The notes beneath the pieces were generated by a model. The model saw only the letters and a program-made list of their open reading frames with translations. It made no database searches and had not been told where the DNA came from. 64,000 nucleotides of DNA, taken from an uncultured Verrucomicrobiota bacterium. GTDB lineage: Bacteria; Verrucomicrobiota; Kiritimatiellia; CAIQIC01; Lenti-01. The position numbers and the translations under genes were made by a program. The DNA lies in the NCBI GenBank assembly GCA_964393515.1, contig CAYMTY010000012.1:3473-67472 (forward strand), written 5' to 3'. Position 1 is the first letter of the stretch. Every line of letters begins with the position of its first letter. This document shows, in pieces, positions 24,464 through 48,919 of this stretch.

Positions 24464-27400
24464 CTATTTGCTCCGGAGCCGGATGAAGAGCGTGCCGTCC
24501 GCGTCCGGATCCACCACGGTGTCGGTCAGCCCGGTGGTGGCGGCGCTCACCGCCCGCTGCACGCCGACCCCGGTCCAACCCGCGCCATCGGTGAGATCCT
24601 CGTTCACCATGAATTCCACGACGGCCGAGTTGCCTGCCGGGTTCACCTCGGTGACATTGTAGGTCACCACGGCGCCGGTGGCGGTTTTTTCGATGCGGGT
24701 GATGACGGTACCGGCGGTGATGCCGCTGGGGGGCCGGTCGAACCGGTTGTTGGGATCGGAACCGGCGGCCAACTCGACGCCATCGCTGTAGCCGTCGCCG
24801 TCGGAGTCCCACATCAGCGGATTGGTCCGGCGGACGACGACCTCGTCGGCATCGTTGATGCCGTCGCCGTCGGTATCCGCCATCCGGGGATCCGTGCCCA
24901 GATCCCGTTCCTGGGCATTGGGCAGGGTGTCGCCGTCGGGATCGCCGTCCGGCCCGTCGTCGCCGGTGGGAACCAGCGGATTCAGGCGGTAGCGGACTTC
25001 CCAATCGTCCTGCAAGCCGTCGTCATCGGAATCTGCGTCGCAGGGGTTGGTGCCGTTGGCCTGTTCGAGGGCGTTGGACAGGTTGTCGCCATCCGCGTCC
25101 GCGGTGCCGTCGGCGGGATCCCGCGGGTCGAGACCGGCGCAGGCCTGGTAGGTGAGTTCCCATCCGTCGAGCAGGGTATCCCCGTCGGTATCGGGATTGG
25201 CGGGATTGGTGCCGTAGATTTCGAGTTCGGCCCGGTCATTGAGCCCGTCGAAATCGCTGTCCCAGCGCATGGGATTGGTGCCCAGCGCCAGTTCGGCTTC
25301 GTCGGTCAGGCCGTCGCCGTCGCTGTCCACGTTGTTCTTCCAGTAGGCCAGCGAATTATAGATCAGCAGATTCTGGCCCGGCACCGATCCTTGCGAAGTC
25401 AGCGCCAGGGTTTTCACGGAGAATTCCAGCGCGTAGGGCAATTGAGAGCCGGTCGATCCCTTGGGGTTCGCTTTGCGGGCCAGGATGATCCCGCCCGAGG
25501 GCTCGCCCTTGAGGAAGCCCCACGGCTCGCCGACATCCAGCATTCCGTTGCTGTTCCGGTCCAGGAAACCCCGGACATGATAGGCCCCGGCGCGCAGGCC
25601 CAGCAGGGTGTAGCTGCCGTCGGCGGCCGCCCGGACACGGGCGGCGGGGGTCTGATCAAAACCGGCCCCGGCAAAGGCCTCCACGACACGCACGCCGGTA
25701 TTGGTGCCGAAGTAGCCGATCTTGCCCCGGATGGTGCCGGCCCCGACGGGCGCCGGCTGCAGGTTGACCGAGAAGGGCGCCGAGGCCGTTCCGGAGCTGA
25801 CGCGCGGATTGAGGGCCGAGACGCGGATGGCATAGTCGCCATTGGTAAAAGTTCCCCAGCCCGCCAACCAGGGCAGGTCCATCTCGGCGATGCCGGCGTT
25901 GTTGACCACCGGCGCGGGGACCGTGAAGCTCAAGAAGGTGGTCCCGCCGCGCTGAATCTGAACCGTCACCTGGGCGGCATTCTTGGAAAGGCGGAGCTGC
26001 AGCCGGTTCCGGGCATGCGGCAGGGTCATGTTGGTCGGAGACAAGATGCTCGGCGCGGCCAAGGAGGCGGCATACCAGATGCTGTTCGAGCCCGAGGCAA
26101 ATACATTGGTACCGGTCATGACGATGGAACCATCGGAGGGCGGCGCCCCACCGACCACGGCCCACTTGTAGTTCCCGTACAGGGGTGCCACGCCGGCCTG
26201 CCGGAAATCCATCTCCGTGATAAACGGCCGATCCATGGATTCCAGGTCGCGCACCGCGGAATAGATGATGGAGCCGCCGATCTGCTGGATCGATACGATG
26301 TAGGTCGTGCTGTTCACCTGCGCGAGCGCCGCGGCGATCTTCGCCAGGTCCTGCTCCCACGAGAAGCGGATGTAGCCGGCCGGCTTGTCGGTCAGGGTGA
26401 CGCGGACGTCTGCGGAGCCCCACTGGATGTTTTCGACGCCGCTCTGCGCGAAGCCCTCGCTGAAGCCCAGCCACTCGGCCTCGCCGGCTGTGCCGCCGGC
26501 GTTCCACTTGCCGTCTCCGTTGGCATCGATGAACGCCATGAAGATGTTGTTCCCCTGCCGCAGGTGGCCGACATCCCAGTTGGTGACCGTGCAGGTGCTG
26601 CCGTTGGCGAACAGGCCCTCCAGCGGGATGACGGTCCGGGCATCCGGCCGGCGCATGGCCAGGTCCGAATAGGCCCAGACCACGAGCGGGGCTTCGGCCG
26701 ACAGCGTGGCCGCCGCATCGCCCAGGAAGGTGAAGGTCACCGGCGGCACCGGATAGGAGTCGGGGTCGTCGGGCCGGGTCGGCCCCACGGCCATCCGGTT
26801 GGTGACGCCCTCCACCACGGTCAAATCAAAACCCGTTCCCAGGTATTCCGCGAGATTGTGCCAGCCGTCGCCGTCGGGGTCGGTGCCGGCGTCGTTGACG
26901 AGCGGGCTCAGCACGTCGGCATAGATGATCTCCCAGGCGTCCGGGATCAGGTCGCCGTCCATGAAGTATTCGCCGAAGCTCAGGCAGTTGCCGACGCAGA
27001 GCGGATCGTTGGAGTCGTAGTCGCTGAAGCCGTCGCCGTCGCTGTCCCAATCGGTGGGATTGGTGCCGGCCAGGTATTCGGCCAGGTTGGTCAGGCCGTC
27101 GCGGTCCGGGTCGCCGTAGGCGCCGTCGTTGCCGCGTTCGCTGTTGGGATCCAGGCCGTACAGGGTTTCCCAGCCGTCGGGCAGGCCGTCGCCGTCGCTG
27201 TCGCTTAAGAAAGGCTGGTTTTGCTGGGAGAGCACTTCAAACGCCACATCGCCCACCAGCCGGCCGGCATAGTCCCAGTTGTTCTGGTAGATCAGGTTTT
27301 CCAGGGTGGCGCCGCCATCGTCGGCGGGATAGTAGCCCACCAGCGCAGTCAGGGCGTAGACCCGCAGCGGGTAGAAGTTTTCCAGGGGTGCCTGGTCCAC

Positions 27401-30400
27401 CGTGCGCACGTGCAGTGCGCCGGGGATGTACGTGCCGTACTCCATGTCCGGATTGCGCACGGCCGCCCGGTCTTCCGCATGCACCCCCTGCTGGAAGTCG
27501 AAGTTGAAATAGCTCACCAGGCCGCTTTCGCTGCCGTACAGGTTCTGCTTCATGGCGCTGCGGACTTCCTCGGTCGTGAGCGCGTTGTTCCAAATGCGGA
27601 CTTCGTCGATGTCGCCCGCAAGGCCGCGGCCGATCTCCACGGGACCGTCCAAAATGCGGATTGACAGGTCCGTGTAATCCGTCCCGATCGAAATCGGCAC
27701 CAGCAGGCTGTTCTGGATGGCAGACAGTTCACCGTCGATGTACAGGGTGGTGTTCATCTCATCCCGCGTGTAGGCCACGTGATGCCATTTGCCGTCGTTC
27801 ACCGGCTTGGCCGAGATCAGATTGTTGATCGAGGTGTTAACAACCACATCGCCAACGGTCACGACCCCGTTGGTATCCGTGTCCGTTTCGCGCCATTGGA
27901 TTGCAAACCGGCCGACCAGCCGGCCGCCCTCGCCGACGGTGAGGGCGTAGTTGAAATCGTCGGTTTCGCCGATGACATTCCCCGTGTTCACGCGGGAGAT
28001 GATGGCGCCGGCGTCGTCCGAAGTGCGCACCCAGCATTCCAGGGTCCAGGTCTGCAACTGGTCGCGGGCCGTGTTGGGGGCCGCCACTTCGCGCAGATGC
28101 CCCTGGTCGCCCACGACGCGCAGCAGGCCGGAATCGGCAGCGGCCACCCCGAAGAGCAGATTGCGGCGGCTGAATTCCTGGATGTCCACGTCCCGGCGGC
28201 CGATCTTCCAGATCCGCACGTCCTTCAGACGGCCCACGAAGCCATTGCCGCCGAAATAGGTATCGCCCGGGCCCTGGGCCGGATCATAGCTGGTGATCTG
28301 GGAGCGGACCACCTGGCCGTTGATGAACAAGCCCAGGCTGCCATCGGAGAGGCGCCCGGCCAGATGCACCCACTGATTCGTCTCCAGCGGGAGGTTCACG
28401 GTCAGTTCCGTGAGGTTGGCGTCGTTGAAGTGGTTGAAGCGGACATAGGGTACGATCTGGTTGCTGCCGTTGTTGCGGATGCCCAGTTCGTAGTTGAGCC
28501 AGTTGCTGCAGCGCACGGTGCGCTGCACGAGCGGCTGATCCACGCCCAGCGGCGGCACGGCCTCCGGCTGGACGAAGCATTCGATCGTCCACTCCTCGGC
28601 GCCCAGGTGTTCCGTGTCCACGCCCCGGACCCGGTCCGCCACCACGATTTCGCCCGCGCCGCCCGAGGCCCCGAAGCGGAGCGCCTTCATTTCGTAGGGA
28701 ATCATGGAATAGGCCGGATCGGTGGCGGCCGCGAGTTCCCCGTTGTCGTCCAGGCCGGAATCATCGGTGTCCCGGCGGTCCACCCGGCTGCCGTGGTGGG
28801 CCTGTTCATCCCGGCTGATCAGCGTATCGCCGTCGTGATCCTCATTGCCGTCACCGGTGCCATTGCCGTTGCTGTCGGCCAGCACCGGATTCAGGGACGG
28901 CAGGCCCAGCGCCTGGTTCATGAAGCTGATTCGCCATTCATTCAGGTTGGTCAGGCCGTCGCCGTCGGGATCGTCGTCGGGCTCGTCCTCCTCGGTCTGC
29001 GCCAGGAACCACTCCTCCCACCAGACGGGCATGTCCTCTTCCGAATCCACGAACGAGTAGTTGAAGGGCGTGATGGCGGTCGCGAACGTTGCGGCGTCGA
29101 AGGCCACGCCGGTGAGGGCGTAGTCCCAGTTCCGGAACTGGGTGTAGTCCTCCGCCAGCAGGCCGCCGTCGTCGAAGGGATAGAAGGCGAAGTCCTCCGC
29201 GGCATCATCGGTGACAATGGCGGTGAGGATCTGGGACAGTTCGGAGCCGCCCGGCGCCGGGAAGAAGGTGCCGCCGGTTCCGGTGGCAATGCGCTCCAGT
29301 TCGAACGTGCTGCCGGCCAGGATCGAGGAGCCGAAGCCCACGGTGTTGACCTTGGCGCCCAGCGTCACGAGCTGGGCCAGATCCGTGTCCGTCGGCACGC
29401 CCGAGTTGGGCACGCCGTCCGAGATCAGGATGCCCACGTATCCGCCGGGGGCTTCGCGACCCGAGATGATTTCGATCATCTTGGACACGGGCGCGCTGTA
29501 GCTGGTGTTCCCGATCGGGACCAGGGAATCGACCAAGGTCTTCAACGTGTCCCGGTCGGCGGTGAACTCCTGGACCATCTGGACTTCGTTGTCGAAGGTG
29601 ATGATCGCCATGGAAGCGCCCTTGGGCATGGAATCGATGGCGACCGTGGCGGCCTCCTTGGCCTGGTCCATGCGGCTTTCCGCGGCCATGCTGCCCGAGA
29701 CGTCGATCATCAGGACGTAGTCGGCCGAGGGCATACCGCCGCCCAGCAATTGGCGGCCGATGAACACATCGTCGATCCGGCCGGTGATGTTCTCCCCGAT
29801 GTAGGTGGCGCCCCGCCCCGTGATGCAGGGCGCGGCGACGTTCAGGGCCGCCACGACGCAATCATCGACCAGGAGCCGCAGAATGTGGTTGGACGGGCTC
29901 CACTCGGCAATCACGGCGGAGAACCGGTCGGTCGGCAGCGGGTCGGTGCCGCTGGCCGTGTAGGTCGCCATCAGGGGGTTGTTGAAGCGCACAAAGGGGA
30001 CGTTGTTATTCAGGCCCAGTTCGAAATGGATGCCGCCGCCCTCCACGTCCCGCCGGATGAGGGAGCCGGTCTGGGCGGCATCGGGCTTCACCATGGCCGC
30101 CAGATGCCACTGGGCAAGGTTTTCGAAACGCTGCGGGGTGAGATCGTCTTCAAGCACCCGCTGGGGCTCCGGAACCAGCACGGGGGTTCCGTCCAGCACC
30201 AGGCTGCGGTCCACCTGCGGGCTCCGCGAATAGATGCCGGAGGTGTTCTCGGTGACCTCCAGGTCGTCCCGGCGGCCATCGTCGTCCGTGTCGGAATTGT
30301 CCGGATCGGTGCCCCAGGTCCAGATTTCCGCCGCATTGGCCAGGGTGTCGCCATCGCTGTCCCATTCGGCGTCGGTCAGGCGGCCGGTGGGATCCTGGGA

Positions 30401-33400
30401 GTACATGCCGTGCGGATCGCTGCCGATGCGGAATTCCCAGTAGTTGCTGAGGCCGTCCCCGTCGGGATCCTCTTCGGCCACGGAAGCGCCGCGCGGATCG
30501 AACCCGTGTTCGAGGTACCACCAGTCCGGGATGCCGTCGCGGTTGGAGTCATAGCTCATGCTGGCACCGGCGCCGGCGCCGTCCCACAATTCGACCGCGG
30601 CGTCCGCCCGGGCGTCGCGCAGGGGCAGCAGATCGTTGAAGAGCGAATTGTCCCGGGTCGTGAAGACCAGGTGTTCCTGGTTCAGGGCGTCCGGGTGGTT
30701 CTCCAGCCATTCGGTGGCGCCGTGATAGTAACCCATATTGTAGGGATTGGCGCTGTTGGGGAAGTCGCGCTGCTGCTGGATCACGGTGGTCACGTTGGTG
30801 GCCACGTTGGTGACCGTCACCACGTCGCCGTCCGTGTTGGTGGTGGAAGTCGTGGTGATCTCCAGGTTGGTGACCTGGACGGGGACCATCATCTGGTTGT
30901 AGGGCGAATCGGGCGGCGGATCGAGCGGGAAGCGCGCGGCGATGTTGGCGATCCACGGCACATAGTGGTAGTTGTCATACACCGTGGACCGGTCGAGGGC
31001 GGTTCCCCACCACGGCACGTTCGGATAGGAGCCGTCGTTTGGCCGGCCGTTCAAGAGCTCGAAGCCGGCGGGCGCGACGCCTTCGCCCGCGGTCAGCGGG
31101 TCCATCAGGTTGTTGAAATTGTAGAGGTACATCAATTCCGGCGCGGCGGGGGTGTCGGTCACCGCGGCGCGGTTGGCGATCACATCGTCCAGGTCCATCT
31201 TCGCCATGCGCTCCTGCGCGATCTGGGCGCTGGTTTTCGCGCCGTTCCAGATGCGCACTTCATCCACCCAGCCTTCGAAGTAATTCGACAGGTCCGGCTG
31301 GGTCAGGACGGTCCCGGCATAGTACCCGACGAGGATCGGCGTGCCCGACACCCAGCCGTCCGGATTGTTTTCTTTCGCGCCCACCACGATCGGCGCGGAA
31401 AACACAAAGGCGGGATTCCCGGTGAACCAGCCGTTGGCGGGCCGTTCGGCGCTGGCCACGCTGGCGCGCATTTCCCCGTCGATGTACAGATACAGGCGCT
31501 TGGCGGTCCCGTCATACACCCCGGCCAGGTGATACCAGCGATCGGCCTGCAGGGCGTAGGCGCTGGCGGCCTTGGCTTCCACGTAGAGCGCGTCGTAGCC
31601 CAGCCCGTTGTAGGCGACATACGGCTGCCCATTGGCATCCAGGGCCAGCCGGAAATTGAGCCGGTTGCCTTCCGGGAAGCCCATGAGATTGCCGTTGGGC
31701 ACGGTCATCGGCCGTTCCAAGATGACCTGCATCTCGCCCTTGGCCGGATTGACGGCCCGGACCCAGGTCTCGATGGTGAAGGTGGTCATGGCGTAGGCGG
31801 GATGGAGGAACCGGCCGCGGGTGCGGGCGGCGGCATCGCCGTCGAGATACAGGGCGCGCCGGCGCGGCGGCGATTCCACGTTCAGCGGATCCGTGCTGCC
31901 CGGGCTGGTGGGCGTATGCACGAGTTCGGCCCGGTCACCCAGCATGTCGCTGTCCGAGTCAAAGCCTTCGCTGGAGGCAAACGAGAACATATAGGACGGC
32001 GGCGGACGAATCGTCGAGCCCCAATACCAGTAATTCAGCAGGTTGCCGAGGCCGTAATACAGGTTCACCCAGCTGAGCTGGTAGCTGGTGTCCCGGACCC
32101 ACAGCGGCGAAGGGCTGGTGTGGTAGTAGGCCGGAGCCGGGACATTGGCCTGAATGGATTCATCCGAGTTGGGCAAGCCGTCCTGGTCCGGGTCGGCAAA
32201 CGGGGAACCGGCGACAAAGGGCCACAGGCGGATGTCGAAGGTGGGCGGTACTCCGGCAAAGACCGTGGCGCCGAGGACCATGGACTGGTGGATGTCCAGC
32301 GTCCCGTACATGGGATTCAAGCCGTGATAGATCTCCCAGAAATCATCCATGCCGTCCCAGTCGGTATCGGCGACGCGCGGGCTGGTGGCCGTGTACCGGT
32401 TGTTGACGTGGTTGATGTAATAATAGTCGTAGGTGTTCTGCTGGCTGTTCCAATCCCAGGGGAACGGCGTGCCGCCGAAGAACAGCATGGGGTCGTAGCT
32501 GCCCAGCGGTTGGTTGGCGATCCATTCCGTATAGCGCCAGTGGTGCACGGACCCGCTCAGGTACTCCTGGTAGTTGACCAGCCCGTCGTCGTCATAATCC
32601 GCCGGGGCGTCCTTGTGGGTGCCGTCCATGCCGTTGCGGCCGTCCAGGTCGGTGATGTCATAGATCGTCGAGCGGTAGCGGGCCTCCCAGTGGTCGGGGA
32701 TGGCGTCGCGGTCCGTGTCGGCTGTCGTGGGGTTGAGGCCGCAGCCGATGTAGCAGCTGTTGTTCCAGTTGATGACGCCCCCGGCGTACTTGAGGACGGC
32801 CAGGCTGCCTTCCGCGTCCTCGCCGCCCGGGAGATCCTTGTCGCTGTAGCCGCCCTCGCCGCCGTCGATCAGGCCGTCGCCGTCGGTGTCGTCCACATTG
32901 GGATCGGACGGCCAGACCTTGTTGAGCCAGGCCATGTCGAAATGGGTCCGGCCGTTGGGCCAGCTCGCTCCGCGGGTCAGATTGATGTCGTAGGCGCTGA
33001 ATTCCTGGAAGGCGTTCAAGCCGTCCGCATCCCCGTCCACAATGGCGTCGTCCTGGTTCACGGGATTGAGCCCCACATAGAGCTCCCAGCCGTCGAAAAT
33101 CCCGTCGGTATCCGTGTCGATGCTCAACGGATTCACGGCAAAACTGTTGAAATTGGCGCAGGAAAACCCGCCCTGGAGGAAGCCCAGGTAGAGGGTGGCC
33201 AGGAATTTCTCGCGGTTGTTGAAGGGCTGCGTGTTTTCCTGGCCGGAGAGGGCCCGGACCGTCCCGCGCGTCAGATAATTTTCACCCCAGCCGGTGCGGG
33301 GGTCGAATCCCAGTTCGTCGTACACCTGCCGGTGGCGGAATTCGGAAACGCCGTCGTCGTAATAGGCCATGTAGTCGCCGGAGGGATTGCGGGTGCCGTC

Positions 33401-34495: not shown

Positions 34496-34541
34496 TTGCT
34501 CCTGGCAGAGACGGCCCGACTGGTAAACATGGTCCTACAAA

Positions 34542-35045
34542 TCATGGCTCTTCTTCCAAAACGTCCTGTGTCTCGGCGGCGCCGGCCGGCCGGCTCAACG
34601 CGCGCAATTCATCCAGCAGGGCGGTCTCCTGCTCGCGCAAGGCACGCCACTGCTCATCCGCGCCCACCTGGGCTTCCAACTGCAGGCTTTTCTCCCGCAG
34701 CTTCTGCCGCGATTCTTCTATTTCCCGGACCAAGGCGCGCGCGCCTTCGCCGGCCTCGATTTGCTGGCGGCGCTGGAAGACGTCCCGGCGGACGGCGATC
34801 AACTGCGTGCGCAACTGGTCCAGGCGTTCGGTCCGGGCTTCCGGCGAAAGCGCCGGTGTCTCGGCGGCAACCGCCTCGACTGCCGGTGGCGGGGCCGCGG
34901 GTGGCGCTTCCGGCGGCGGGGCTTCCGCCGGTGCGATAACCGGAACGCAGGCAACGCAAAGCGCGATCAAGCCACAGCGCACGGTTCCCGCCCCGAGGCG
35001 GGTGCGCCGGCAGAGTTCCGGCCGAAAAAACAGCGTAGCGATCAT
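34542..35045 (-). CDS. Small secreted acidic coiled-coil protein (partner 1), 46 bp upstream of the 3343-aa gene
   Basis: From ATG 35045: MIATLFFRPELCRRTRLGAGTVRCGLIALCVACVPVIAPAEA (signal), then a Pro/Ala/Glu linker, a coiled-coil heptads segment (LDQLRTQLIAVRRDVFQRRQQIEAGEGARALVREIEESRQKLREKSLQLEAQ) and an acidic tail. The track start at 35153 is unsupported. Confidence 0.5.
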   Translation of the reverse strand: MIATLFFRPELCRRTRLGAGTVRCGLIALCVACVPVIAPAEAPPPEAPPAAPPPAVEAVAAETPALSPEARTERLDQLRTQLIAVRRDVFQRRQQIEAGEGARALVREIEESRQKLREKSLQLEAQVGADEQWRALREQETALLDELRALSRPAGAAETQDVLEEEP

Positions 35046-35166
35046 CTGTTCAATCCTAGGTCTTGTTGGGTTCCTTGTCAACGGCGGCAAATCGCCGCGC
35101 CGGCCCGCCGCAACCGCGGGAAGCGTCAGAAACCGGCTGCATTTCATTTCCATGATCTCCGCGGGA

Positions 35167-38100: not shown

Positions 38101-41100
38101 CTCCAGGCCGTCCAGCCGGTAGGCCCCGCCGGCATCGGTGAGTACCCGGCCGCCGGCGGCGCCCCAGTACTCCACGGCCAGCCCGCCCAGCCCCGCCGCG
38201 GTCTGCGCATCCCGCACCACCCCCGAAATGGTGTGCCGACGGGCGACCGGCACCGTGAAGGACAGCACCCACGGCCCCCGGGTCGGATGCACCATCGTCA
38301 GCGTGAATTCCGCCGGCCCGGCCGCGGCCGGCATCCGGACCCGGAAAGGCAGCGTGTTGCTCTGCTGCTGCCCGCTGGGAATGCCGGGCCAGGCCGCGGT
38401 GCCCTGCTGGATCACCACGCCGGCCGTGGCGCTGGCGAGAGTGCCAGTCGGATTCGCATAAAGGGCCGAGCCGTCATTGAACAGGCGGATGTACAAATCC
38501 ACGGTTTCGCTCGGCTCGGCGTGGCTGTCGCCGTCACCCGTGCCGTTATCCACCACGCGGACCTCCGTGATCACCGGGAACGGCGCGGCCAGCACGTCGA
38601 CCGTCACCGGGACCATCAGGACGTTGACACCGCCGCGGATGACGATATTGGCGGTATAGGTCCCCGCGGGCAGCTGGCCCGCCGCGTTGATCGCCACCTC
38701 GACGGACAGCCGGTCTCCCGCCGGGATGTTCCCCCGCTCCAGGTCCAGTTGCAGCCAAAAGGCCTGGATCTGCTCCAAGGCCGCTGCGGCGTCCAGGTGG
38801 CCGCCGGAGGCGACCTTCCCGGCCAAGACCGGGTCCCGCCGCGCCCCCAGCATCAGGGCGTCCCGCAGCATCGCCGGCGTGGCCCACGGGGCGATGGATT
38901 TCATCAAGCCGGCCACGCCGGCAACGTGGGGCGCGGCCATCGAAGTGCCGGATATGCTCTTATAGCCGTCCGCCATGGTGAAGACATCCAGATAGGTACT
39001 GAGAATGTCGACGCCGGGGGCGGCAATATCCACGGACTGTTCCCCGTAGTTCGAGAACCACGCCAGCAGCCCGTCGTGGTCCGTGGCGGCCACCGACACG
39101 ATGTTGTCGAGGTTGTACGACGCCGGATAGCTGGGATAGACATCGTTGTTCAGCGTATCGTTGCCGGCCGCCGCGACCACGAGGTGATCCTGGGCCAGCG
39201 CGGCGGCAATGGTTTCATACTCCACTCCGCTGAAATAGCTCCCGCCATAGCTGTGGTTGCTGATCTTGACGCCCTCGGCCACCGCGCGATTCAACGCATC
39301 TATCGCCGCCGCCGCGGAAAGGCTCAAGGTCTCGAGGCCCGTCAGCGGGTCGATCACCACGGTGGCGATTTTCAGCGGCATGAGCTTGGAATTCCAATTC
39401 ACGCCCACCACGCCGATTCGGTTGTCGCCAACGGCGCCGATGGTGCCGGCCACGTGGGTGCCGTGCTCGGCGACGTCGGCAATGGGATCCGGCGTGGGAT
39501 CGGGATCGTCGTCCCCGCAATCGTAGCCCGGCACCAGGTTGGCGGCCAGGTCGACGTGGTCGAGCTTCACGCCGGTGTCCACCACGGCGATGACCGTCCC
39601 GGTGCTGCCGACCGTGATGTCCCATGCCTGCGGCGCGCGGATGTCCGCGCCCAGGGTGCCGCCGGTCTGCCGGGTGTTCTCCAAGCCGTACATCTGCCCG
39701 AAGAACGGGTCCTCCGGCACGGCGAAGGGCTTCCGCCGGTAGTTGGGCTCCACGTAGCGGATGGCGGCATCCGCGGTGAGCGTGTCGGCGATCGCCGGCA
39801 GGGACCGGTTGGCCGGCACCCGGACGAGCGCCGCGGAAACCAGATCGAAGCGACGCAGCACCTGCGCGCCGACCGCGGCCAGGGCGCCGGCCTGGGCCTG
39901 AAGGCCGGCGGCGTCCTCGAACCGGACCAGCAATTCCCCTGGAACGTACGCCTCCGCGGGCAGGGACGCCCAATCGGTTGCGGGCAGCACCACCTCGCCC
40001 ACCCGGTCATGCGGAATCCCGGATACGAGTTCGATCCCGAGCTCGACAAAGCCGTCGAAGACTCCGGCGTTGTCGATTTCCAGCGTCAGGTTGGTCCCCG
40101 TGCCTTCGCGCAGGGTCACCGCGATGGGATCGGGCGCGGCCGTGACATTCCACGGCGCCACGGTGAAGTCCACGTTGGGGACATCGGCGTCCGCCACCGG
40201 CACGATCCGGGCGGGCGGCGCGCCGTACGGCGGCGGCGGCAGGACATAGACTTCATAGGCGCCGTTGACCAGGCCGAACACCTGGTAGTCGCCGGCGGCA
40301 TCCGTCAGGGCCTGGCCCGTGAAATTGCTGCCGACGACCTTGACGACCGCACCCTCCACCGGAGCGGCCGCCATATCCTGCACGTTTCCGGAGATGGCGT
40401 GGCGCACGGTCACGGTCAGGGCGAAGGTCAAGGCGGTCACCCGGGCCTCGACATCGGTAACTTCCAGATCGAACTCAACCACCTCGCCCGCCGCCAAGGC
40501 CGGATCCAGAGTGATCCGCGGATACTCCGCCGGCGGCACGGTCAGGGGATCGACCACCGGGCTGGCCGCGCTGCCGGCCGGCACGCTGATCCAGGACACG
40601 GCGTCCTGGTCGACAGTCGTGGCGGTGCCGCCGCCGTAGCTGACAATGCCCGCCAGCTGCAGCGCATCCTGGCTCCCGGAGTTGCCCAGGAAAATATCGA
40701 TGTCCAGAGACTCGCCGGCCTCCGGATAGGCGTCCCCGTCGCCGCCGATCACGCGTGTGCCCTGGATATAGAGGACCGGGCTGGCCGCCACGGTCAGCGT
40801 CACGGGGATCAGGATGTCCTCGCCGCCGATGTCATTGCTGATCAACCGCAGGATCGCTTCATACGGCTGTTCGGAGGGCGTCAAATCGGCGGCGGCGACG
40901 GCCACTTCGACCGTGGCGCCCGCGCCCGCGGGCACGGCGCCGGCGGCCGGGTCCACGGCCAGCCAAGCCGGGATTTCCGCCATGGCCGGGTGCGGGAGAT
41001 AATCCACCCGGAGATCATAGTCCAGCGGCAGATTGCCGGTGCTGTTGTCCAGCGCGAGGCTCTCCAGCGCCGCGCCGCCCTCGCCCAGTTCCAGGACAAA

Positions 41101-44100
41101 GAGCAGCGGCGCAGGATTGGCGGTGGCCCGTCCCAGGCCGAAGTTGGCGGTGGCCGGGCCCGTCCGGGAAACCGGCGCGCTCGGCGAATATTCGCCGGGT
41201 TTCAACGCCCGGATATCGTACGCCACGCCCGGAACGAGGCCATGCAGGGCATAGGTGCCATCCGCCCCGGAATAGGCCTCGAGCTCCGGATATCCGGGTG
41301 CCTGGCCGCGGATCCAGGCATCCGCGATGGGATTGCCGGTGAACAGGTCCGTCACCACGCCGGTCACGCTTTCCCGCACGGCGATTTCCACCGCCAGCGT
41401 ATCGGGATACGGCCCGAGGCCGCCGTCGGCCTGCGCGCTGTGGAAAACCGTGAACCACGTTCCGCCGGGCACATCCGCAGCAACCGCCAGAGGCAGCTGC
41501 GTCCCGCTGAAGGCGTTGTCCCCGGGATCCAGGTCGCCGTAGAGGACGGTGGCCGGAGTCGGCGTCAACGTCACCCCGGGGGTGGGCACGGTGACCGTGG
41601 CCCGGGCATTCATGAGCGCCTGGGTCTGGGTCGAGTTGTAGACCTCCAAATCCAGGAAGAAGCTTTCGCCCGGTTCCGCATGACCGTCCCCGTCGCCCCC
41701 GGCCAGGTCGTCGATGACATGGCTCACGATGCTGATGCCCGGCGGCAGCACGTGGGAAATCCGGACGTCATCGAGATACCAGCCCGCGGCGGTTTGCTGG
41801 GCGTCGGACTCGATGCGGAACCGCACCCGGATGGCTTGGTTGCTGAAATTGGCCAGTTCCACCGTCACCAGCTGCCATTCTGCGGCGGAGCCCTCCACGA
41901 CGTTCGCCCCAAACGAGGATTGGGCCGTGACATTGACCCAGCCGGCCCCGGCATTGACCTCGATGACGCCGAAATCCCCGGCGCCGAACTGGTGCCACGA
42001 CCAGAATTCCAGGCGCGGGTTGAGTTTCACCTCGACGGACGTGCCTACCACTGCGGCTTTGGCCAGGTGCGGATAGTTGCCGTCCAGAATGGTGCCCCAG
42101 GCCCGCATCCCCGAATGGGCGCCCACCGGGCCGAAGGTCGGAATGCCGTACTCCCAACAGGCCACCCCGTTGAGGTTGGTGATGGTCCATCCGGCCACGC
42201 CGGATTCCATGTCGTTCTCGTAGACCACCCGGCGCAGCGGCGTGATGAACTTCAAGTAGTCGTCTTCCACCGTGGAGGTCAGATCTGCCGGGGCCGAGGC
42301 CTTGTTGCCGGCATAATCCTCGGACAGGACCGCGACAAAGTAGCGGGTTGCGCCTTCGACGGGGATCGACACTTCATGCACGTATTGCGTCACGCCCTCG
42401 ACCACGGTCGGCGTGTCCACATACACGCCCCCGCCCGTCTCCGGCAGCAACGTGGCCAATCCGCCGGCCGGAATTGCCTGGGCCAGAACGTACCGGGAAT
42501 CCGCCGGCTCGTCCGTGGCCCAGGACACCACGGCCGTATCCTCGGTCAGACTGAGCAGCTTTACCCCGCTGATGACCGGCGGTGTGTCGTCGATGGGAGC
42601 CGCCGCCGTCGCGGTCTTGCCGCCCGGACTGGTGTAGGAAATCGTCAGCGTGTCGCCATCCACCGCCATGGTGCCGCTGGCCAACGCCAGCTGGCCGGTA
42701 AAGCTGATGCCTGCGTCATACGGCAGGGTCAACGCATCGCTCCAGCGCAGGACCCCGTCGGGATCCCGGATCTCGCCGTCCGCCGTCACGTCCGCCGGCA
42801 GCGGCGCGGGCAGGGTCGGATCGCTCACGGTGACCTGGACCGTGGCATCCGACTGGTAGGCCGGCCGGTCCAGCGCAACTTGCGGCCCCAGCGCCGCCAC
42901 TGCGGCGTAGAGATCCAGCTCGCCGCCGGTGACCACCTTGCCATCCAGATTCGCATTCGGCGCAACACTCGTCAGGAGCGCGTCCCGGATCACGGTGTAG
43001 GGATAATCCGGATTGAGGCTCCACAGCAGAGCCGCCGCCCCCGCCACGTGCGGGCAGGCCATGGAGGTGCCGCTGTAGGAGTCCAGCGCATCCCCCCCGC
43101 CGCCGGGGACGGTGCTGAGAATGTCCACGCCGGGCGCGGCCAGATCCACGCTTTCCAGGCCGTAATTGGAAAAGTCCGCCAGTTCCCCGGCGGAATCGAT
43201 GGCTGCGACCGCGATCAGGTTGGGCAGGTCATAGCTGGACGGATAATGGGGATAGGCGTCGTTGTCCTCGCCGTCATTGCCCGCCGCCGCAATGAACAGC
43301 TGCCCGTAGACTTCGCCGGCTTTCTTGATGGCGTCGTACAGGCCCTGGCTGTACCCGCCCCCGCCCCAGCTGTTGTTGGTGATCTTGATCTTGAGCGCGG
43401 TGTTGGTGGCCGCATATTCGACGGCCTCGATCGCGTCGGCCGTGCTGCCATAGGGATCCAGGAATTTCAGGGCGATCATCTTGACCTGCCAGTTCACGCC
43501 CGCCACCCCGAGGGCATTGTTGCCGACGGCCCCGATGGTTCCGGACACATGTGTGCCATGGCCGTGGTTGTCCTGCTGGTCCGGGATGTCGTTGGCAAAA
43601 TCGTAGCTGCCCGGCGCGATGTTGGCCTGCAAATCCTGGTGGGCGGTGTAAATGCCCGTGTCAATGATGCCGACCACCATTTCCTGGCTGCCTTGCGTGA
43701 TGTCCCAGGCTTCTGGCGCGCGGATGCGCTCCATGCCCCATAAATCACCGTAATGGGGGTCGTCCGGCACCGTTGCGACCGGGCGCAGGATGTAATTCGG
43801 CTCGACATAGGCCACCGCGGGATCCGCCAGGTACTGCTTGGCGGCCTGGGCCAGGGAGACCTGCCGGGGCAGGCGCACCTGCGCCACGGGGGTGATCCGG
43901 AACTGCCGGACGACTTCGGCGCCAACCTGCCGGTGCAGGGCGGCGACCGTCGCCGGGACGGCTTCCCCCTTGAATCCAACCAGCAGCTCGCCGGCCACAT
44001 ATTGTTCCGTGAAAACCGGCTTGTCCCAGTCGATGCCGGGGTGCGCGGCCCAGCCCGGACCGGCGGCCAGGAAGAACAAGCCGGCGCACAGCAGCCGGAA

Positions 44101-44130
44101 ACTGCGAAACGCGTGATGGTTTTTCGTCAT
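35167..44130 (-). CDS. Giant (2987 aa) secreted protein with two complete tandem (I9 propeptide + S8 subtilisin) units, CarbopepD_reg-like beta-sandwich domains, a six-blade NHL-repeat propeller, TSP3-like repeats and a C-terminal beta-domain
   Basis: Signal peptide MTKNHHAFRSFRLLCAGLFFLAAGPGWA. Triad 1: VGIIDTGI / HGHGTHVSGTIGA / GTSMACPHVAGAAALL. Triad 2: AVVDTGV / EHGTHVAGTIGA / GTSMAAPHVAGVAGLM. NHL repeats include ADSANHRIQVF, ADMDNHRVQVFDPEGNF, ADTDNDRLQGF, ADTSNHRIQVLNP and ADTWNHRLLQLE. The antisense 3089-aa ORF 34474..43743 + is an artefact. Confidence 0.85.
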   Translation of the reverse strand: MTKNHHAFRSFRLLCAGLFFLAAGPGWAAHPGIDWDKPVFTEQYVAGELLVGFKGEAVPATVAALHRQVGAEVVRQFRITPVAQVRLPRQVSLAQAAKQYLADPAVAYVEPNYILRPVATVPDDPHYGDLWGMERIRAPEAWDITQGSQEMVVGIIDTGIYTAHQDLQANIAPGSYDFANDIPDQQDNHGHGTHVSGTIGAVGNNALGVAGVNWQVKMIALKFLDPYGSTADAIEAVEYAATNTALKIKITNNSWGGGGYSQGLYDAIKKAGEVYGQLFIAAAGNDGEDNDAYPHYPSSYDLPNLIAVAAIDSAGELADFSNYGLESVDLAAPGVDILSTVPGGGGDALDSYSGTSMACPHVAGAAALLWSLNPDYPYTVIRDALLTSVAPNANLDGKVVTGGELDLYAAVAALGPQVALDRPAYQSDATVQVTVSDPTLPAPLPADVTADGEIRDPDGVLRWSDALTLPYDAGISFTGQLALASGTMAVDGDTLTISYTSPGGKTATAAAPIDDTPPVISGVKLLSLTEDTAVVSWATDEPADSRYVLAQAIPAGGLATLLPETGGGVYVDTPTVVEGVTQYVHEVSIPVEGATRYFVAVLSEDYAGNKASAPADLTSTVEDDYLKFITPLRRVVYENDMESGVAGWTITNLNGVACWEYGIPTFGPVGAHSGMRAWGTILDGNYPHLAKAAVVGTSVEVKLNPRLEFWSWHQFGAGDFGVIEVNAGAGWVNVTAQSSFGANVVEGSAAEWQLVTVELANFSNQAIRVRFRIESDAQQTAAGWYLDDVRISHVLPPGISIVSHVIDDLAGGDGDGHAEPGESFFLDLEVYNSTQTQALMNARATVTVPTPGVTLTPTPATVLYGDLDPGDNAFSGTQLPLAVAADVPGGTWFTVFHSAQADGGLGPYPDTLAVEIAVRESVTGVVTDLFTGNPIADAWIRGQAPGYPELEAYSGADGTYALHGLVPGVAYDIRALKPGEYSPSAPVSRTGPATANFGLGRATANPAPLLFVLELGEGGAALESLALDNSTGNLPLDYDLRVDYLPHPAMAEIPAWLAVDPAAGAVPAGAGATVEVAVAAADLTPSEQPYEAILRLISNDIGGEDILIPVTLTVAASPVLYIQGTRVIGGDGDAYPEAGESLDIDIFLGNSGSQDALQLAGIVSYGGGTATTVDQDAVSWISVPAGSAASPVVDPLTVPPAEYPRITLDPALAAGEVVEFDLEVTDVEARVTALTFALTVTVRHAISGNVQDMAAAPVEGAVVKVVGSNFTGQALTDAAGDYQVFGLVNGAYEVYVLPPPPYGAPPARIVPVADADVPNVDFTVAPWNVTAAPDPIAVTLREGTGTNLTLEIDNAGVFDGFVELGIELVSGIPHDRVGEVVLPATDWASLPAEAYVPGELLVRFEDAAGLQAQAGALAAVGAQVLRRFDLVSAALVRVPANRSLPAIADTLTADAAIRYVEPNYRRKPFAVPEDPFFGQMYGLENTRQTGGTLGADIRAPQAWDITVGSTGTVIAVVDTGVKLDHVDLAANLVPGYDCGDDDPDPTPDPIADVAEHGTHVAGTIGAVGDNRIGVVGVNWNSKLMPLKIATVVIDPLTGLETLSLSAAAAIDALNRAVAEGVKISNHSYGGSYFSGVEYETIAAALAQDHLVVAAAGNDTLNNDVYPSYPASYNLDNIVSVAATDHDGLLAWFSNYGEQSVDIAAPGVDILSTYLDVFTMADGYKSISGTSMAAPHVAGVAGLMKSIAPWATPAMLRDALMLGARRDPVLAGKVASGGHLDAAAALEQIQAFWLQLDLERGNIPAGDRLSVEVAINAAGQLPAGTYTANIVIRGGVNVLMVPVTVDVLAAPFPVITEVRVVDNGTGDGDSHAEPSETVDLYIRLFNDGSALYANPTGTLASATAGVVIQQGTAAWPGIPSGQQQSNTLPFRVRMPAAAGPAEFTLTMVHPTRGPWVLSFTVPVARRHTISGVVRDAQTAAGLGGLAVEYWGAAGGRVLTDAGGAYRLDGLEDGVYRVRALGESHEKSAATVCTIAGGNQTAHFSLRRPEVAFGATQLEFAVQAGQDQELELLLDNPAADSFQFRILSSQPRRIGLISDRNNLAPLQPVLQALGWTVALWSNNLAVADGVQTGLHSTDEEVVLPQDLVILDLGGTAGTGRLLSAAEETLFNTFLARGGKLIVVGANVLTRPDDRRMCGLVGADSLDRAASTGTVAVLAQALPIDTNWVAIQPGDRVAVAPRIYDEATPDAAETVASFFEVDGASKIMRRVTAEGGVVVLWNGNLDAGEWNQRGVWQDVLQGLVENELREPVAWLHVTPETAGFSGGSLPVTVRAESAGLAIGTHQAVLLVRGNYPGADVRTVAVSFEVARPTLRAQSTTGVQNWMGQYLSGTGGPDASLFQLVYAGPDGAINAPRTDGQTTGDDVILLTFPFGRNHGRIGVGYEWLPEHGRFDENFQHDLMPTTPVRNVYVRAWDAATFVDSVAYGDSGLYALDLSAGETHDFGTWVVDRVLGYPGTPGALPDSNGDSIPDGYCVLNGMDPHQPILPLEAGWTQQQAVGDYGTATGQFRFPTRLFLTEAFVFVLDRENSRISVWNRATLAHVRNYGANGTGAGQFASPYGLGKDPNADRFAVADSANHRIQVFTFYPGTGQIAFERQFGSYGSANGQFKNPRDVAIDPLGRFFVADMDNHRVQVFDPEGNFQFAFGAYGTANGQLKSPQGIAVDADGIVYVADTDNDRLQGFSGGGAFLWKTGTAGNGLGQFNKPMDLQLGAGGRLYVADTSNHRIQVLNPSRTPVGALGQYGSGDGEVKFPHDAAPALDSGAIYVADTWNHRLLQLEAVLDGDGDGIDDTYELLHDLDPTNPLDAMEDDDGDLLLNIGEYRLRLNPQVADTDGDGYTDGEEVAAGTDPADPTDAPLYVRNLQPAAPFTFTWMGSAGMTYAVQVTSNLVSAPWMTIPGSEVAVATSGLQVFTNLDVNVPWLFFRPVRLP

Positions 44131-44732
44131 TGCTCGGAATCCTCCGCTGGCAGGGCTGTACCGGTCTCTTCGGGATCCGGAGCCGCCGCTCCGGACGTGA
44201 AATCATTTCCAGCGGCCACCCCGTCCGGCGGCTGCTCCAGGGCTTGCAGTTCCAGTTGCTTGCGTACCCGGTCATTGGCCAGCGTCATGATTTCCCGCTG
44301 GATTGTCCCAATCCGCCCGCTCACCCCTGCCTGCTGTTCCTGGAATGCCGTATAGCCCGGGTCGGCAGCCAGCTGCTGGGCCAGGGATTCCTGCAGAGCT
44401 TGCAGTTCGCGCTGCGCGGCTTCGATCCGCTGCTCGAGATCCTGCATGACGGCGTTGCTGGCCACGATCTGCCGGTGGATCTCAAACTGGCTGCGGTGCG
44501 TTTCGCGGGCCTGTTCCATCAGGGCGGTTTGCTCCTGCTCCAGGACCGCCAGCCGGCTGTCAATGGCGCTGATTTGCTCCTGGAACTCGCGCGCCGGATC
44601 TGCCGGCATCTCCGCCGGCGCCGGCGTTTCTGGAAGCTCTTCGGCAAAACTGCTTGCGGGTAAAAATAATAGCGGAACCAGGCTGAAAACCAACGACAAG
44701 CCGCAACGCGAAAACATGCCCAACCTCTTCAT
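44127..44732 (-). CDS. Small secreted acidic coiled-coil protein (partner 2). Its stop overlaps the ATG of the 2987-aa gene (ATGA).
   Basis: MKRLGMFSRCGLSLVFSLVPLLFLPASSFAEE (signal), a Pro/Glu linker, then long Gln/Glu-rich coiled coil (RLAVLEQEQTALMEQARETHRSQFEIHRQIVASNAVMQDLEQRIEAAQRELQALQESLAQQLAAD...) and an acidic tail. Same architecture as 34542..35045. Confidence 0.55.
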   Translation of the reverse strand: MKRLGMFSRCGLSLVFSLVPLLFLPASSFAEELPETPAPAEMPADPAREFQEQISAIDSRLAVLEQEQTALMEQARETHRSQFEIHRQIVASNAVMQDLEQRIEAAQRELQALQESLAQQLAADPGYTAFQEQQAGVSGRIGTIQREIMTLANDRVRKQLELQALEQPPDGVAAGNDFTSGAAAPDPEETGTALPAEDSEQ

Positions 44733-45044
44733 TTCATTCTATAGCAGGCTCAATCCGCCGGCTGGCCAAACCGGATGAAACTCCCTCGTCACCGCCGCCT
44801 GCAGGAGCCAGGCAACGGCTCAGATTGTCCAACGCTCTTCCTCGGAACGCGGAAAAAACGTTGTGCTTTCTTTAATTACACTCCAATTCGCCGGAACTGG
44901 CAACCAAAAAAAAGCCTGGGACGCAGTCGGTTTTCCCCTCCCGATCGCGTCACCGGGCAACTTGTTGGGGGGATCGCCGCGCCCGGCCGGTAAATCGTTT
45001 TCCGGCGAAAAGGTCGGAGGCGGAAGGCGGTAATAATTCCGTAA

Positions 45045-46085: not shown

Positions 46086-46237
46086 GGATGTTCCGGGGAT
46101 TCATAACGCAAAAGGCGCACGGGACGCAAGAAAACAGCCGACAGCCGGAACTACGAATGTCGCGAATCGCACGAATGAACCGCTGACGAACACCACGGGG
46201 ATCAACGTGTCCGCCCACCGCAGGTGCGGCAGGCGGA

Positions 46238-46402
46238 GGATTTCTTTGGGATTTTGCCGGGTTTTCTCGCGAAAATAATACGCAGATTTTCCGGAGATGC
46301 CGCTTCGCGGACGACCCGAGCTGGACTCGTGTCCGCGAGCGGTCGGCCTCGAAGCGGCAGAACGGAAAAGATGCGGATTGGTTTTCGCGCCGGCGAACTC
46401 CC
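46238..46402. repeat. Copy B of the roughly 160-bp palindromic element (TIRs GGATTTCTTTGGG ... CCCAAAGAAATCC), inserted between hisD and hisC
   Basis: Aligns base-by-base with 15829..15983. The identical 50-nt core is retained. The TIR substitution CCGG to TGGG is mirrored by CCGG to CCCA at the other end, a compensatory change. Confidence 0.8.
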
Positions 46403-46448
46403 AAAGAAATCCTCTTGTCCCCGAACTGTCCGAAACGGAAGCAGGCGG

Positions 46449-47765: not shown

Positions 47766-47777
47766 GGGAAAAGCTTG

Positions 47778-47877
47778 GGTTCAGGGTTCACAGTTCACAG
47801 TTCAACGTTCTTGGTTCACGGTTCAGGGTTTGCGGTTCAGCGGCTGCCATTCTGAATTCTGACTCCTGACTTCTGAC
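47778..47877. promoter_or_regulatory. hisD leader/promoter region with two adjacent heptanucleotide arrays: (GGTTCAS)8 and (TTCTGAC)4
   Basis: Plus-strand reading: gggttca gggttca cagttca cagttca acgttct tggttca cggttca gggtttg cggttca, then tctgaat tctgact cctgact tctgact tct. Confidence 0.5.
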
Positions 47878-47885
47878 TTCTTCTC

Positions 47886-48904: not shown

Positions 48905-48919
48905 GCGGCCCCCTCCCCC

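What the first reader, a model, noticed from the sequence alone, without database searches (positions are those of the whole stretch)
24464..44732. Two consecutive 'small secreted coiled-coil protein + giant secreted multidomain protein' cassettes in one apparent operon
Gene order on the minus strand is: small acidic coiled-coil protein (201 aa), 2987-aa protein, small acidic coiled-coil protein (about 167 aa), 3343-aa protein. The first pair overlaps by ATGA, consistent with translational coupling. The gap between the second pair is 46 bp, and the gap between the two cassettes is about 120 bp.

The two small proteins share the same architecture: Sec signal peptide, Pro/Ala/Glu linker, 80-100 residues of Gln/Glu-rich heptad coiled coil, then an acidic tail. 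They show no obvious similarity to the giants.

The two giants share only TSP3-like Ca-binding repeats and a roughly 80-aa C-terminal beta-rich tail, which could be a sorting or anchoring signal. Tail 1 ends ...TVITRIEKTATGAVVTYNVTEV...DGTLFIRLRSK. Tail 2 ends ...FTFTWMGSAGMTYAVQVTSNLVSAPWMTIPG...PWLFFRPVRLP.

The duplicated pairing suggests a dedicated partner for each giant cargo: a periplasmic chaperone (Skp/OmpH-like coiled-coil tentacles), a secretion or anchoring adaptor, or an inhibitor/cap. I know of no described family with this pairing.
Basis: partly seen in the sequence, partly recalled or inferred. Interest (0 to 1): 0.75.

Follow-up and report, generated by a model that had tools for sequence, protein, structure and literature searches.

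The report
Small coiled-coil partners of giant exoproteins
In a group of freshwater Verrucomicrobiota (Kiritimatiellia), two giant exported proteins are each preceded by a small exported coiled-coil protein from one undescribed family; the gene pairing is conserved across distant relatives, which points to a dedicated partner of unknown function.

Summary
On the minus strand lie small1 (201 aa ORF, probably 196 aa), a 2987-aa double-subtilase/NHL/TSP3 giant (ATGA overlap), small2 (167 aa) and a 3343-aa LamG/VWA/TSP3 giant.

The small ORFs are real genes. An exhaustive HMMER search found 24 small1 relatives of 165-237 aa. All 12 small1-family members with usable context sit directly upstream of a giant peptidase gene on the same strand. 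This holds in loci of 51-71% GC and where the giant's architecture differs.

Small2-type genes lie between the two giants in most loci, but not all. The two small families are probably diverged paralogues: hhalign score 62 against 30 +/- 6 for heptad-preserving shuffles.

Each small protein has a signal peptide, a linker, a heptad rod of about 120 residues and an acidic tail. Three relatives carry lipoprotein signals.

No Pfam, NCBIfam or PDB family matches. Skp-like membership fails.

My best reading is a dedicated, roughly stoichiometric envelope partner (tether or escort) of the giant encoded after it. That role is inferred, not shown.

This is a new family with a genuinely conserved pairing and moderate interest.

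The parts
44875..44903 (-). Conserved promoter-like motif upstream of small1. It reads TTGCCA (44903-44898), 17 nt, TGTAAT (44880-44875), and is preceded by a T-run after the aminotransferase gene.
   Evidence: Alignment of upstream regions from the window, L011, L015 and L016 shows TTGCCA-N17-T(G/C)TA(A/C)T conserved. The sequence was read. The simple sigma-70 scan did not flag it. Function is inferred.
44127..44732 (-). small1: an exported acidic coiled-coil protein. The ORF is 201 aa; the likely start is the ATG at 44717, giving 196 aa. It has a signal peptide, a Pro/Ala/Glu linker, a helical rod at about residues 46-166 and a disordered acidic tail. Its last codons (AEDSEQ) contain the GGAGGA ribosome-binding site of giant1.
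35167..44130 (-). giant1: a 2987-aa exported multidomain protein. In order: signal peptide, prodomain+S8, FN3/MAM-like region, CarboxypepD_reg domains, a second prodomain+S8, an unannotated conserved domain of about 300 aa (aa 2036-2335), an NHL propeller, a TSP3 repeat and a C-terminal Ig-like tail. Both S8 modules keep the D/H/S motifs: DTG, HGTH and GTSMA.
35170..35388 (-). C-terminal tail of giant1, about 73 aa (aa 2915-2987). It is a small beta-sandwich with the motif W..G..Y.vQ...nL...W ... F[FY]R near the end.
34542..35045 (-). small2: an exported acidic coiled-coil protein of 167 aa, probably a diverged paralogue of small1. A conserved TAGGAT (AGGA) motif lies 6-8 nt before its ATG.
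24464..34495 (-). giant2: a 3343-aa exported protein. It has a signal peptide, many TSP3-like Ca-binding repeats, three Laminin_G_3 domains, a VWA domain with a DxSxS MIDAS motif (aa about 1591-1760), and a beta-rich C-terminal tail.
23389..24348 (-). A 319-aa predicted lipoprotein (lipobox LAGC) with an acidic tail, 115 nt downstream of giant2 on the same strand. It may be a fifth gene of the unit.
   Evidence: Translation is. There is no Pfam or NCBIfam match. A homologue (30% identity, E 1.5e-14) lies downstream of the LamG giant in L018. It is not seen in L013.

Best explanation
This is a conserved Kiritimatiellia (Verrucomicrobiota) surface-protein operon. Each of two giant Sec-exported proteins is encoded directly after a small Sec-exported, acidic, rod-like coiled-coil protein, and the pair is often translationally coupled. 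Giant1 is a double subtilase with an NHL propeller. Giant2 is a LamG/VWA/TSP3 protein.

The two small proteins belong to one previously undescribed family (diverged paralogues). In some lineages the family members are lipoproteins.

My best reading is that the small protein is a dedicated, roughly stoichiometric envelope partner of the giant that follows it. An oligomeric coiled-coil rod would bind the giant after export and tether or position it at the membrane or cell surface.

Shown: the genes are real; the family exists; the adjacency, strand and coupling are conserved across deep divergence and across changes in giant architecture; all four proteins carry export signals.

Inferred: co-transcription, physical binding and the tether/escort role.
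For: 1. Real family. phmmer against 1.84 billion representatives gives 24 hits of 165-237 aa, E down to 5e-32, and only one spurious long coiled-coil hit.

2. Linkage. The family HMM finds exactly one hit directly upstream of the giant peptidase gene in L011, L013-L017, L019 and L020. Distant members keep the position:
- P0140 precedes a 1556-aa S8+NHL protein.
- P0142 and P0143 precede M4+S8 giants of about 3200 aa.
- P0145 overlaps its giant.
That is 12 of 12 informative cases.

3. Coupling. An ATGA overlap, with GGAGGA inside the last small1 codons, is found in most of these loci (7 of the 13 junctions examined). A small2-type gene overlaps the LamG giant in L015 and L031.

4. A second cassette is present in the window, L011, L014-L017, L020, L024, L031 and L032.

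5. Paralogy. hhalign gives probability 96%, E 3.5e-9, score 62.4. Controls score 22 +/- 2 (column shuffles) and 30 +/- 6, maximum 41 (heptad-block shuffles). The 206-aa gene between the giants in L032 matches the small1 HMM at 40 bits.

7. Membrane anchoring in relatives. Lipoboxes are LMAGC (L031), VLGGC (L032) and LVAAC (P0141).

8. Not a GC artefact. The gene is conserved in L013, which is 51% GC.

9. A conserved promoter-like motif lies upstream of small1, and no terminator-like site is predicted between the four genes on the coding strand.
Against: - No interaction, localisation or expression data exist.
- The window's own small proteins have no lipobox, so they cannot anchor anything by themselves.
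- small2 is missing in L013, L018 and the P0026 locus, although the LamG giant remains.
- small1 is missing upstream of the distant giants in L031 and L032. The partner is therefore dispensable, or replaceable, in some lineages.
- No fused small+giant protein was found.
- The conserved C-terminal AEDxDQ motif of small1 is explained by the downstream ribosome-binding site rather than by protein function.
- Lipid-anchored or soluble dedicated chaperones would give the same genomic picture.
Confidence: 0.5

Rival explanations
1. A transient, private periplasmic chaperone or holdase. The coiled-coil protein binds the unfolded or partly folded giant after Sec export, prevents aggregation or premature protease activation, hands it to the outer-membrane export route, and is not part of the final assembly. 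This would be functionally like lipase-specific foldase Lif or PrsA, not homologous to them.
For: - It shares the same linkage and translational coupling.
- Both partners have Sec signals.
- Some relatives are membrane-anchored lipoproteins, as PrsA is and as Lif is membrane-anchored (the comparison is from general knowledge).
- The partner is retained while the giant's catalytic head changes from S8 to M4.
Against: - There is no similarity to any chaperone family: OmpH/Skp, LTXXQ/Spy, Lipase_chap and prefoldin are all absent or at noise level.
- A rigid 120-residue heptad rod is atypical for a holdase cavity.
- It is absent in some lineages that keep the giant.
Confidence: 0.25
2. A protease inhibitor or cap. 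The small protein blocks the subtilase domains until the giant is outside the cell.
For: small1 is coupled to a protein with two catalytically intact S8 modules. LamG giants in other loci carry M10, C1 or S8 modules.
Against: - The giants carry their own Fervidolysin-type N-prodomains.
- The window's small2 partners a giant with no peptidase domain.
- small1 is retained when the first S8 is replaced by an M4 peptidase.
- Coiled-coil rods are not a known subtilase-inhibitor fold (general knowledge).
Confidence: 0.07
3. The small genes are co-transcribed envelope proteins, or mainly translational-coupling 'leader' cistrons, with no specific physical relation to the giants.
For: The very C-terminus of small1 is constrained by the downstream Shine-Dalgarno sequence. 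The small proteins evolve much faster than the giants: about 40% against 68% identity in L011.
Against: - Protein-level features are conserved: signal peptide, heptad register, and motifs such as ARxxHRxQF and LAExPxY.
- Adjacency survives even where the genes are separated by 37-113 nt and are not overlapping.
- The unit is duplicated in front of a second, unrelated giant.
Confidence: 0.12
4. The small ORFs are artefactual high-GC ORFs.
For: The window is about 67% GC and is full of long spurious ORFs, including antisense mirrors of both small genes.
Against: - Homologues have the same length and architecture in loci of 51-71% GC.
- Gene callers predict them in independent assemblies.
- Ribosome-binding motifs are conserved.
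Confidence: 0.01

Closest known systems
Dentilisin operon prcB-prcA-prtP of Treponema denticola (PMC8167434)
   Same: A small accessory gene (PrcB, 23 kDa) is first in an operon with an exported subtilisin-family protease. PrcB interacts with PrtP and is required for PrtP protein to be detected. [quoted passage not shown] Some relatives of the small proteins here are also lipoproteins.
   Different: No sequence similarity was detected. The paper states that PrcB has no homologues outside oral Treponema. The window's small proteins have no lipobox. They are long coiled-coil rods. The unit occurs twice, the second time with a LamG/VWA giant.
Skp/OmpH periplasmic chaperone
   Same: It is a small, Sec-exported periplasmic protein with long alpha-helical arms that binds exported clients.
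   Different: There is no OmpH profile match. The model has no beta-strand trimerisation core. The pI is acidic, 4.2-4.7, whereas Skp is strongly basic (general knowledge). Skp is a general chaperone, not one encoded next to a client.
Private steric chaperones of secreted enzymes (lipase-specific foldase Lif; PrsA). General knowledge, not tested by sequence beyond the Pfam scans.
   Same: An all-helical or membrane-tethered envelope protein is encoded in the same operon as one exported client and is needed only for that client.
   Different: No profile match was found. Lif is a globular helical 'headphone' rather than a heptad rod. Gene order and size also differ.
Coiled-coil envelope rods and stalks: Braun's lipoprotein Lpp, the S-layer stalk SlaB, and the tetrabrachion stalk that carries subtilisin-like proteases. 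General knowledge.
   Same: These are oligomeric coiled-coil rods that set distances or hold large surface proteins. Lipoprotein variants exist in this family. Tetrabrachion binds S8-type proteases.
   Different: No homology was detected. The window proteins lack a lipobox, a C-terminal Lys and a transmembrane anchor. Oligomeric state and location are unknown.

Membership tests
Skp/OmpH (PF03938) | Match to the OmpH profile | tested here: not met
   There is no OmpH hit for small1 or small2 at E<=0.01-10, nor for any of the 26 family members.
Skp/OmpH (PF03938) | Beta-strand core that trimerises, with a helical hairpin inserted | tested here: not met
Skp/OmpH (PF03938) | Basic protein (general knowledge) | tested here: not met
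   Mature pI is 4.23 for small1 and 4.71 for small2.
Spy/CpxP (LTXXQ) periplasmic chaperones | LTXXQ-family profile match | tested here: not met
   It does not appear among the Pfam hits for any family member.
Braun lipoprotein-like anchored coiled coil | Lipobox Cys at the signal-peptide cleavage site | tested here: not met
   The window's small1 (…LPASSFA/EE) and small2 (…IAPAEA/PP) have no [LVI][ASTVI][GAS]C. Lipoboxes are present only in relatives: L031, L032 and P0141.
PrcB (dentilisin accessory lipoprotein) | Sequence homology to PrcB and lipoprotein status | not tested
   No PrcB sequence was compared directly. The paper states that it has no homologues outside oral Treponema. The NCBIfam scan gave no such hit. 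The window proteins lack a lipobox.
Peptidase S8 (giant1) | S8 profile match and Asp/His/Ser catalytic motifs | tested here: met
   PF00082 matches at E 7e-105 in two stretches. DTG, HGTHV and GTSMA motifs are present in both modules (sequence).
LamG / VWA adhesin-type modules (giant2) | Laminin_G_3 and VWA profile matches, and a MIDAS DxSxS motif | tested here: met
   PF13385 matches at E 1e-56 in 3 stretches, and PF13519 at E 2e-12. 'DVSGS' lies at about aa 1597.
T9SS C-terminal sorting domain (Por_Secre_tail) for the giants' tails | Profile match to a T9SS CTD | tested here: not met
PEP-CTERM / other known C-terminal anchors | Terminal motif, then a hydrophobic helix, then a basic cluster | tested here: not met
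   The giants end in a beta-sandwich (…LFFRPVRLP and …LFIRLRSK) with no terminal hydrophobic helix.

The most novel reading that the evidence does not exclude
The small proteins define a new class of dedicated coiled-coil partner for giant exoproteins in PVC-group bacteria. A lipid-anchored or soluble oligomeric rod would be made one-for-one with the giant by translational coupling, and would tether it to, or deliver it through, the outer envelope. small1 and small2, as paralogues, might form a hetero-oligomeric stalk that joins the protease giant and the adhesin-like giant into one surface machine.
Probability: 0.3. Interest if true: 0.7.

Novelty: new variant of a known kind. Interest (0 to 1): 0.55.

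Why it matters
How Gram-negative bacteria outside the model phyla export, fold and display proteins of 3000 aa or more is largely unknown. Verrucomicrobiota/Kiritimatiellia are abundant degraders of polymers in lakes, sediments and guts.

A small, lineage-specific partner gene that stays glued to giant protease and adhesin genes gives a concrete, testable handle on that problem. The pairing holds through deep divergence, domain swaps and a tandem duplication. It can be tested by pull-down, deletion or co-folding.

The family (no Pfam or NCBIfam model) could also be used to flag this type of surface apparatus in metagenomes. If the partner proves to be only a minor accessory, the result is still a new conserved family with defined architecture and context.

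Tried and rejected
1. The word-indexed homologue search with small1 alone and with the family alignment returned essentially only self. Coiled-coil words swamp the index. Only the exhaustive search worked.

2. The search for related loci with the small-protein alignments failed, because no stretch was conserved enough. I used a conserved internal domain of giant1 instead (A3). That gave only 7 genome loci and 3 metagenome loci.

3. Fold searches were uninformative. The small1 model matched only generic coiled coils, and the giant1 tail matched only generic Ig/FN3. The afdb50 library was unavailable.

4. Profile searches of the small family against Pfam, NCBIfam and PDB sequences gave only sub-threshold coiled-coil noise: SMC, myosin tail, HlyD, DUF3450 and designed coiled coils.

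5. A Rosetta-stone fusion, meaning a small-like domain inside any giant homologue, was not found.

6. The weak Amuc_1099 'pilus-like system' hits in both giants fall on TSP3 repeats and are below cut-off. I rejected them as evidence.

7. Literature searches for Kiritimatiellia giant genes or coiled-coil partners found nothing relevant.

8. A multimer prediction could not be run with the tools available.
Full report
**1. Observation**

Four co-directional minus-strand ORFs occupy 24464-44732, exactly as described:
- small1: 44732..44127, 201 aa.
- giant1: 44130..35167, 2987 aa.
- small2: 35045..34542, 167 aa.
- giant2: 34495..24464, 3343 aa.

The junctions also match. small1 and giant1 share an ATGA overlap. 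The small2-giant2 gap is 46 nt and the giant1-small2 gap is 121 nt.

The window is about 67% GC and full of spurious ORFs. Codon-position GC picks the minus-strand frames: GC3 is 0.86 for the giants, and the small genes show high GC1/GC3 with low GC2.

Independent assemblies of the same organism carry the same four gene calls. They start small1 at Met6 (196 aa) and giant2 at its second ATG. A GAAGAGG motif before that ATG is conserved in orthologous loci, so 44717 is the likelier start of small1.

**2. The giants**

giant1 has two Fervidolysin-type prodomain+S8 modules, and both keep their D/H/S motifs. It also has CarboxypepD_reg domains, an NHL propeller and a TSP3 repeat.

giant2 has three Laminin_G_3 domains, a VWA domain with a DxSxS motif, and many TSP3 repeats. 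Both giants begin with signal peptides.

giant1 belongs to a large family of proteins of about 3000 aa, at 72% down to about 30% identity. Where sources name them, the labels are Kiritimatiellia, Verrucomicrobia, 'Spartobacteria' and Lentisphaerae MAGs (locus titles). Upstream synteny (UvrA, TPR, ExbB/ExbD, hisD, aminotransferase) is shared with a 68%-identity relative.

**3. Are the small genes real, and are they linked to giants?**

The word-indexed search found only self. An exhaustive phmmer search against 1.84 billion representatives found 24 proteins of 165-237 aa, E from 5e-32 to 1e-4, plus a single spurious long coiled-coil protein.

The family alignment shows:
- a signal peptide;
- a variable linker;
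- conserved motifs ID..L..E, ARxxHRxQF, RIE..Q.EL..LQE.L...LAExPxY and LAxERV..QLE;
- an acidic tail.

I fetched loci through giant1 homologues and through a conserved internal giant1 domain. The family HMM hits exactly one ORF directly upstream of the giant in every locus that reaches that far: L011, L013, L014, L015, L016, L017, L019 and L020. One of these loci is only 51% GC.

I then went the other way, from the most distant small1 relatives at 27-29% identity:
- P0140 precedes a 1556-aa S8+NHL protein, followed by a 163-aa small gene and a 3919-aa LamG+S8 giant.
- P0143 and P0142 precede M4+S8 giants of about 3200 aa, each followed by a small gene.
- P0145 overlaps its giant.
- P0141 lies on a contig too short to judge.

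That makes 12 of 12 informative cases.

**4. Coupling**

The ATGA overlap recurs in the window, L011, L014-L017 and L030. In most of them GGAGGA lies 8-13 nt before the giant's ATG. That hexamer is read as Ala-Glu-Asp in small1.

The conserved C-terminal 'AEDxDQ' of small1 is therefore at least partly a ribosome-binding-site constraint, not evidence for a functional peptide. Members that do not overlap their giant lack the motif.

A promoter-like TTGCCA-N17-T(G/C)TA(A/C)T motif is conserved about 170 nt upstream of small1. No terminator-like site is predicted on the coding strand between the genes. An operon is likely but not shown.

**5. The second cassette and paralogy**

A small gene lies between the S8 giant and the LamG giant in the window, L011, L014, L015/L021/L022, L016, L017, L020, L024, L029 (partial), L031 and L032. 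In L015 and L031 it overlaps the start of the LamG giant.

It is absent in L013, L018 and the P0026 locus. The P0026 locus instead has two small genes upstream of the S8 giant.

Pairwise BLAST of small1 against small2 is insignificant. Profile-level evidence is stronger:
- The small1 HMM hits small2 orthologues and the small2 HMM hits small1 members.
- hhalign gives probability 96%, E 3.5e-9, over 107 columns in matching register.
- As a control for coiled-coil bias I shuffled the small2 alignment. Column shuffles scored 22 +/- 2. Heptad-block shuffles, which keep periodicity, scored 30 +/- 6 with a maximum of 41. The real score is 62.4.
- The between-giants gene of the distant locus L032 matches the small1 HMM at 40 bits over nearly its whole length.

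I conclude that the two small proteins are diverged paralogues. The ancestral unit is 'small gene + following giant'.

**6. What the small proteins look like**

AF2 with the family alignment gives mean pLDDT 80, above 90 over residues 60-150. It predicts a signal-peptide helix, a disordered linker, helices 46-92, 94-123 and 125-166 separated by single residues, and a disordered tail.

Conserved hydrophobic positions show a strong 3.5-residue period. One register runs over about residues 45-128, with a shift after the conserved Pro-x-Tyr.

Mature pI is 4.2 (small1) and 4.7 (small2). No Pfam, NCBIfam or PDB-sequence family is matched above noise.

Three relatives have canonical lipoboxes: L031 (LMAGC), L032 (VLGGC) and P0141 (LVAAC). 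The window proteins do not.

**7. The tails**

All giant1 orthologues end in a domain of about 70 aa with W..G..Y.vQ...nL...W and a terminal F[FY]R. AF2 gives a confident small beta-sandwich with only generic Ig/FN3 neighbours and no Pfam or NCBIfam model.

The tail HMM also hits the LamG giant of L013, but not the window's giant2 at E<=0.1. BLAST links the giant2 tail to one giant1-type tail weakly.

A role as a sorting signal is possible but untested. It is not a T9SS CTD or a PEP-CTERM by the tests available.

**8. Where could the partner bind?**

small1-associated giants share only giant1 residues of about 411-889 and about 2367-2987. The 1556-aa protein of L024 is exactly N-terminal 45-889 plus C-terminal 2367-2985, and L026/L029 replace the first S8 with an M4 peptidase. 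Any small1 binding site should lie in these shared parts. No giant contains a fused small-like domain.

**9. Interpretation**

The data establish a conserved genetic unit and a new protein family. They do not establish function.

I favour a dedicated, stoichiometric envelope partner: a coiled-coil rod that tethers or escorts the following giant. The reasons are:
- translational coupling;
- export of both partners;
- the rod architecture;
- lipoprotein variants;
- persistence through domain swaps;
- duplication in front of a second, unrelated giant.

A purely transient private chaperone is the main rival, and it cannot be separated from the favoured reading with these tools.

An inhibitor role is unlikely: the giants have their own prodomains, and small2 partners a non-protease giant here. 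Skp-like membership fails on profile, fold and charge.

The closest functional analogue I could document is the dentilisin operon. There the small first gene, prcB, encodes a lipoprotein that binds the S8 protease PrtP, is required for PrtP protein to be detected, and helps anchor an equimolar complex. There is no homology to it.

**10. Verdict**

The family and the pairing appear undescribed: I found no model in Pfam or NCBIfam and no relevant paper. The general concept of an operon-encoded accessory partner of an exported enzyme is known. Interest is moderate.

Noticed in passing
window 23389-24348 (-): A 319-aa predicted lipoprotein (lipobox LAGC) with an acidic Glu-rich tail lies 115 nt downstream of giant2. 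It has no Pfam or NCBIfam match. A 30%-identical homologue lies downstream of the LamG giant in L018, so it may be a fifth member of the unit and a possible membrane anchor.
   Followed up: partly
window 35170-35388 (-); also the C-termini of P0007-P0080: An unannotated C-terminal beta-sandwich domain of about 70 aa ends in F[FY]R and is conserved at the very end of essentially all giant1-family proteins. It has no Pfam or NCBIfam model, and only generic Ig/FN3 structural neighbours.
   Followed up: yes
window ~37126-38025 (-) = giant1 aa 2036-2335: A domain of about 300 aa is conserved in all giant1 orthologues. Invariant positions include PDD, G.GRL and W.GN..EW. No family listed in the Pfam or NCBIfam scans has its best stretch there.
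   Followed up: partly
window 36498-36571 (+): ARAGORN calls a tRNA-Leu(GAG) antisense to the giant1 coding region. Rfam finds no tRNA there at gathering threshold, so it is probably a false positive in GC-rich coding sequence.
   Followed up: partly
window ~44740-44870 (-); L011 9250-9425, L015, L016: The 5' leader between the promoter-like motif and small1 contains conserved blocks in relatives: a GGGCACAATGCCC hairpin and CAGGAAGAACGCATGATGAAAAAA. The second block creates an in-frame upstream ATG in some relatives (for example the P0127 N-terminal extension) but not in the window. It may be a regulatory leader.
   Followed up: no
L032 8396-9786: In a distant relative, an ECF sigma factor and a FecR-type anti-sigma gene lie immediately upstream of the giant C25+S8 gene, and small1 is absent. 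This suggests cell-surface-signalling control of the giant genes in that lineage.
   Followed up: no
L026/L027 1-612 and 9407-9616; L029 85-342: A small CxxCxxCC-domain gene lies just upstream of the small1 homologue in two loci. A type II secretin gene lies about 9 kb upstream in L026. L013 has three T2SS/T4P ATPase genes upstream of the unit.
   Followed up: no
window 45045-50010 (-): Housekeeping context is conserved with L011: ExbB, an ExbD-like gene and a 260-aa unannotated protein, then hisD and a class I/II aminotransferase. The giant operon is therefore chromosomal and syntenic, not on an obvious mobile island. GC is slightly lower across 24-36 kb (0.63-0.66 against about 0.69).
   Followed up: partly
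window 27779-34939 (+) and 34474-43743 (+): Very long antisense ORFs of 2386 and 3089 aa mirror the giants. Codon-position GC shows they are high-GC artefacts.
   Followed up: yes
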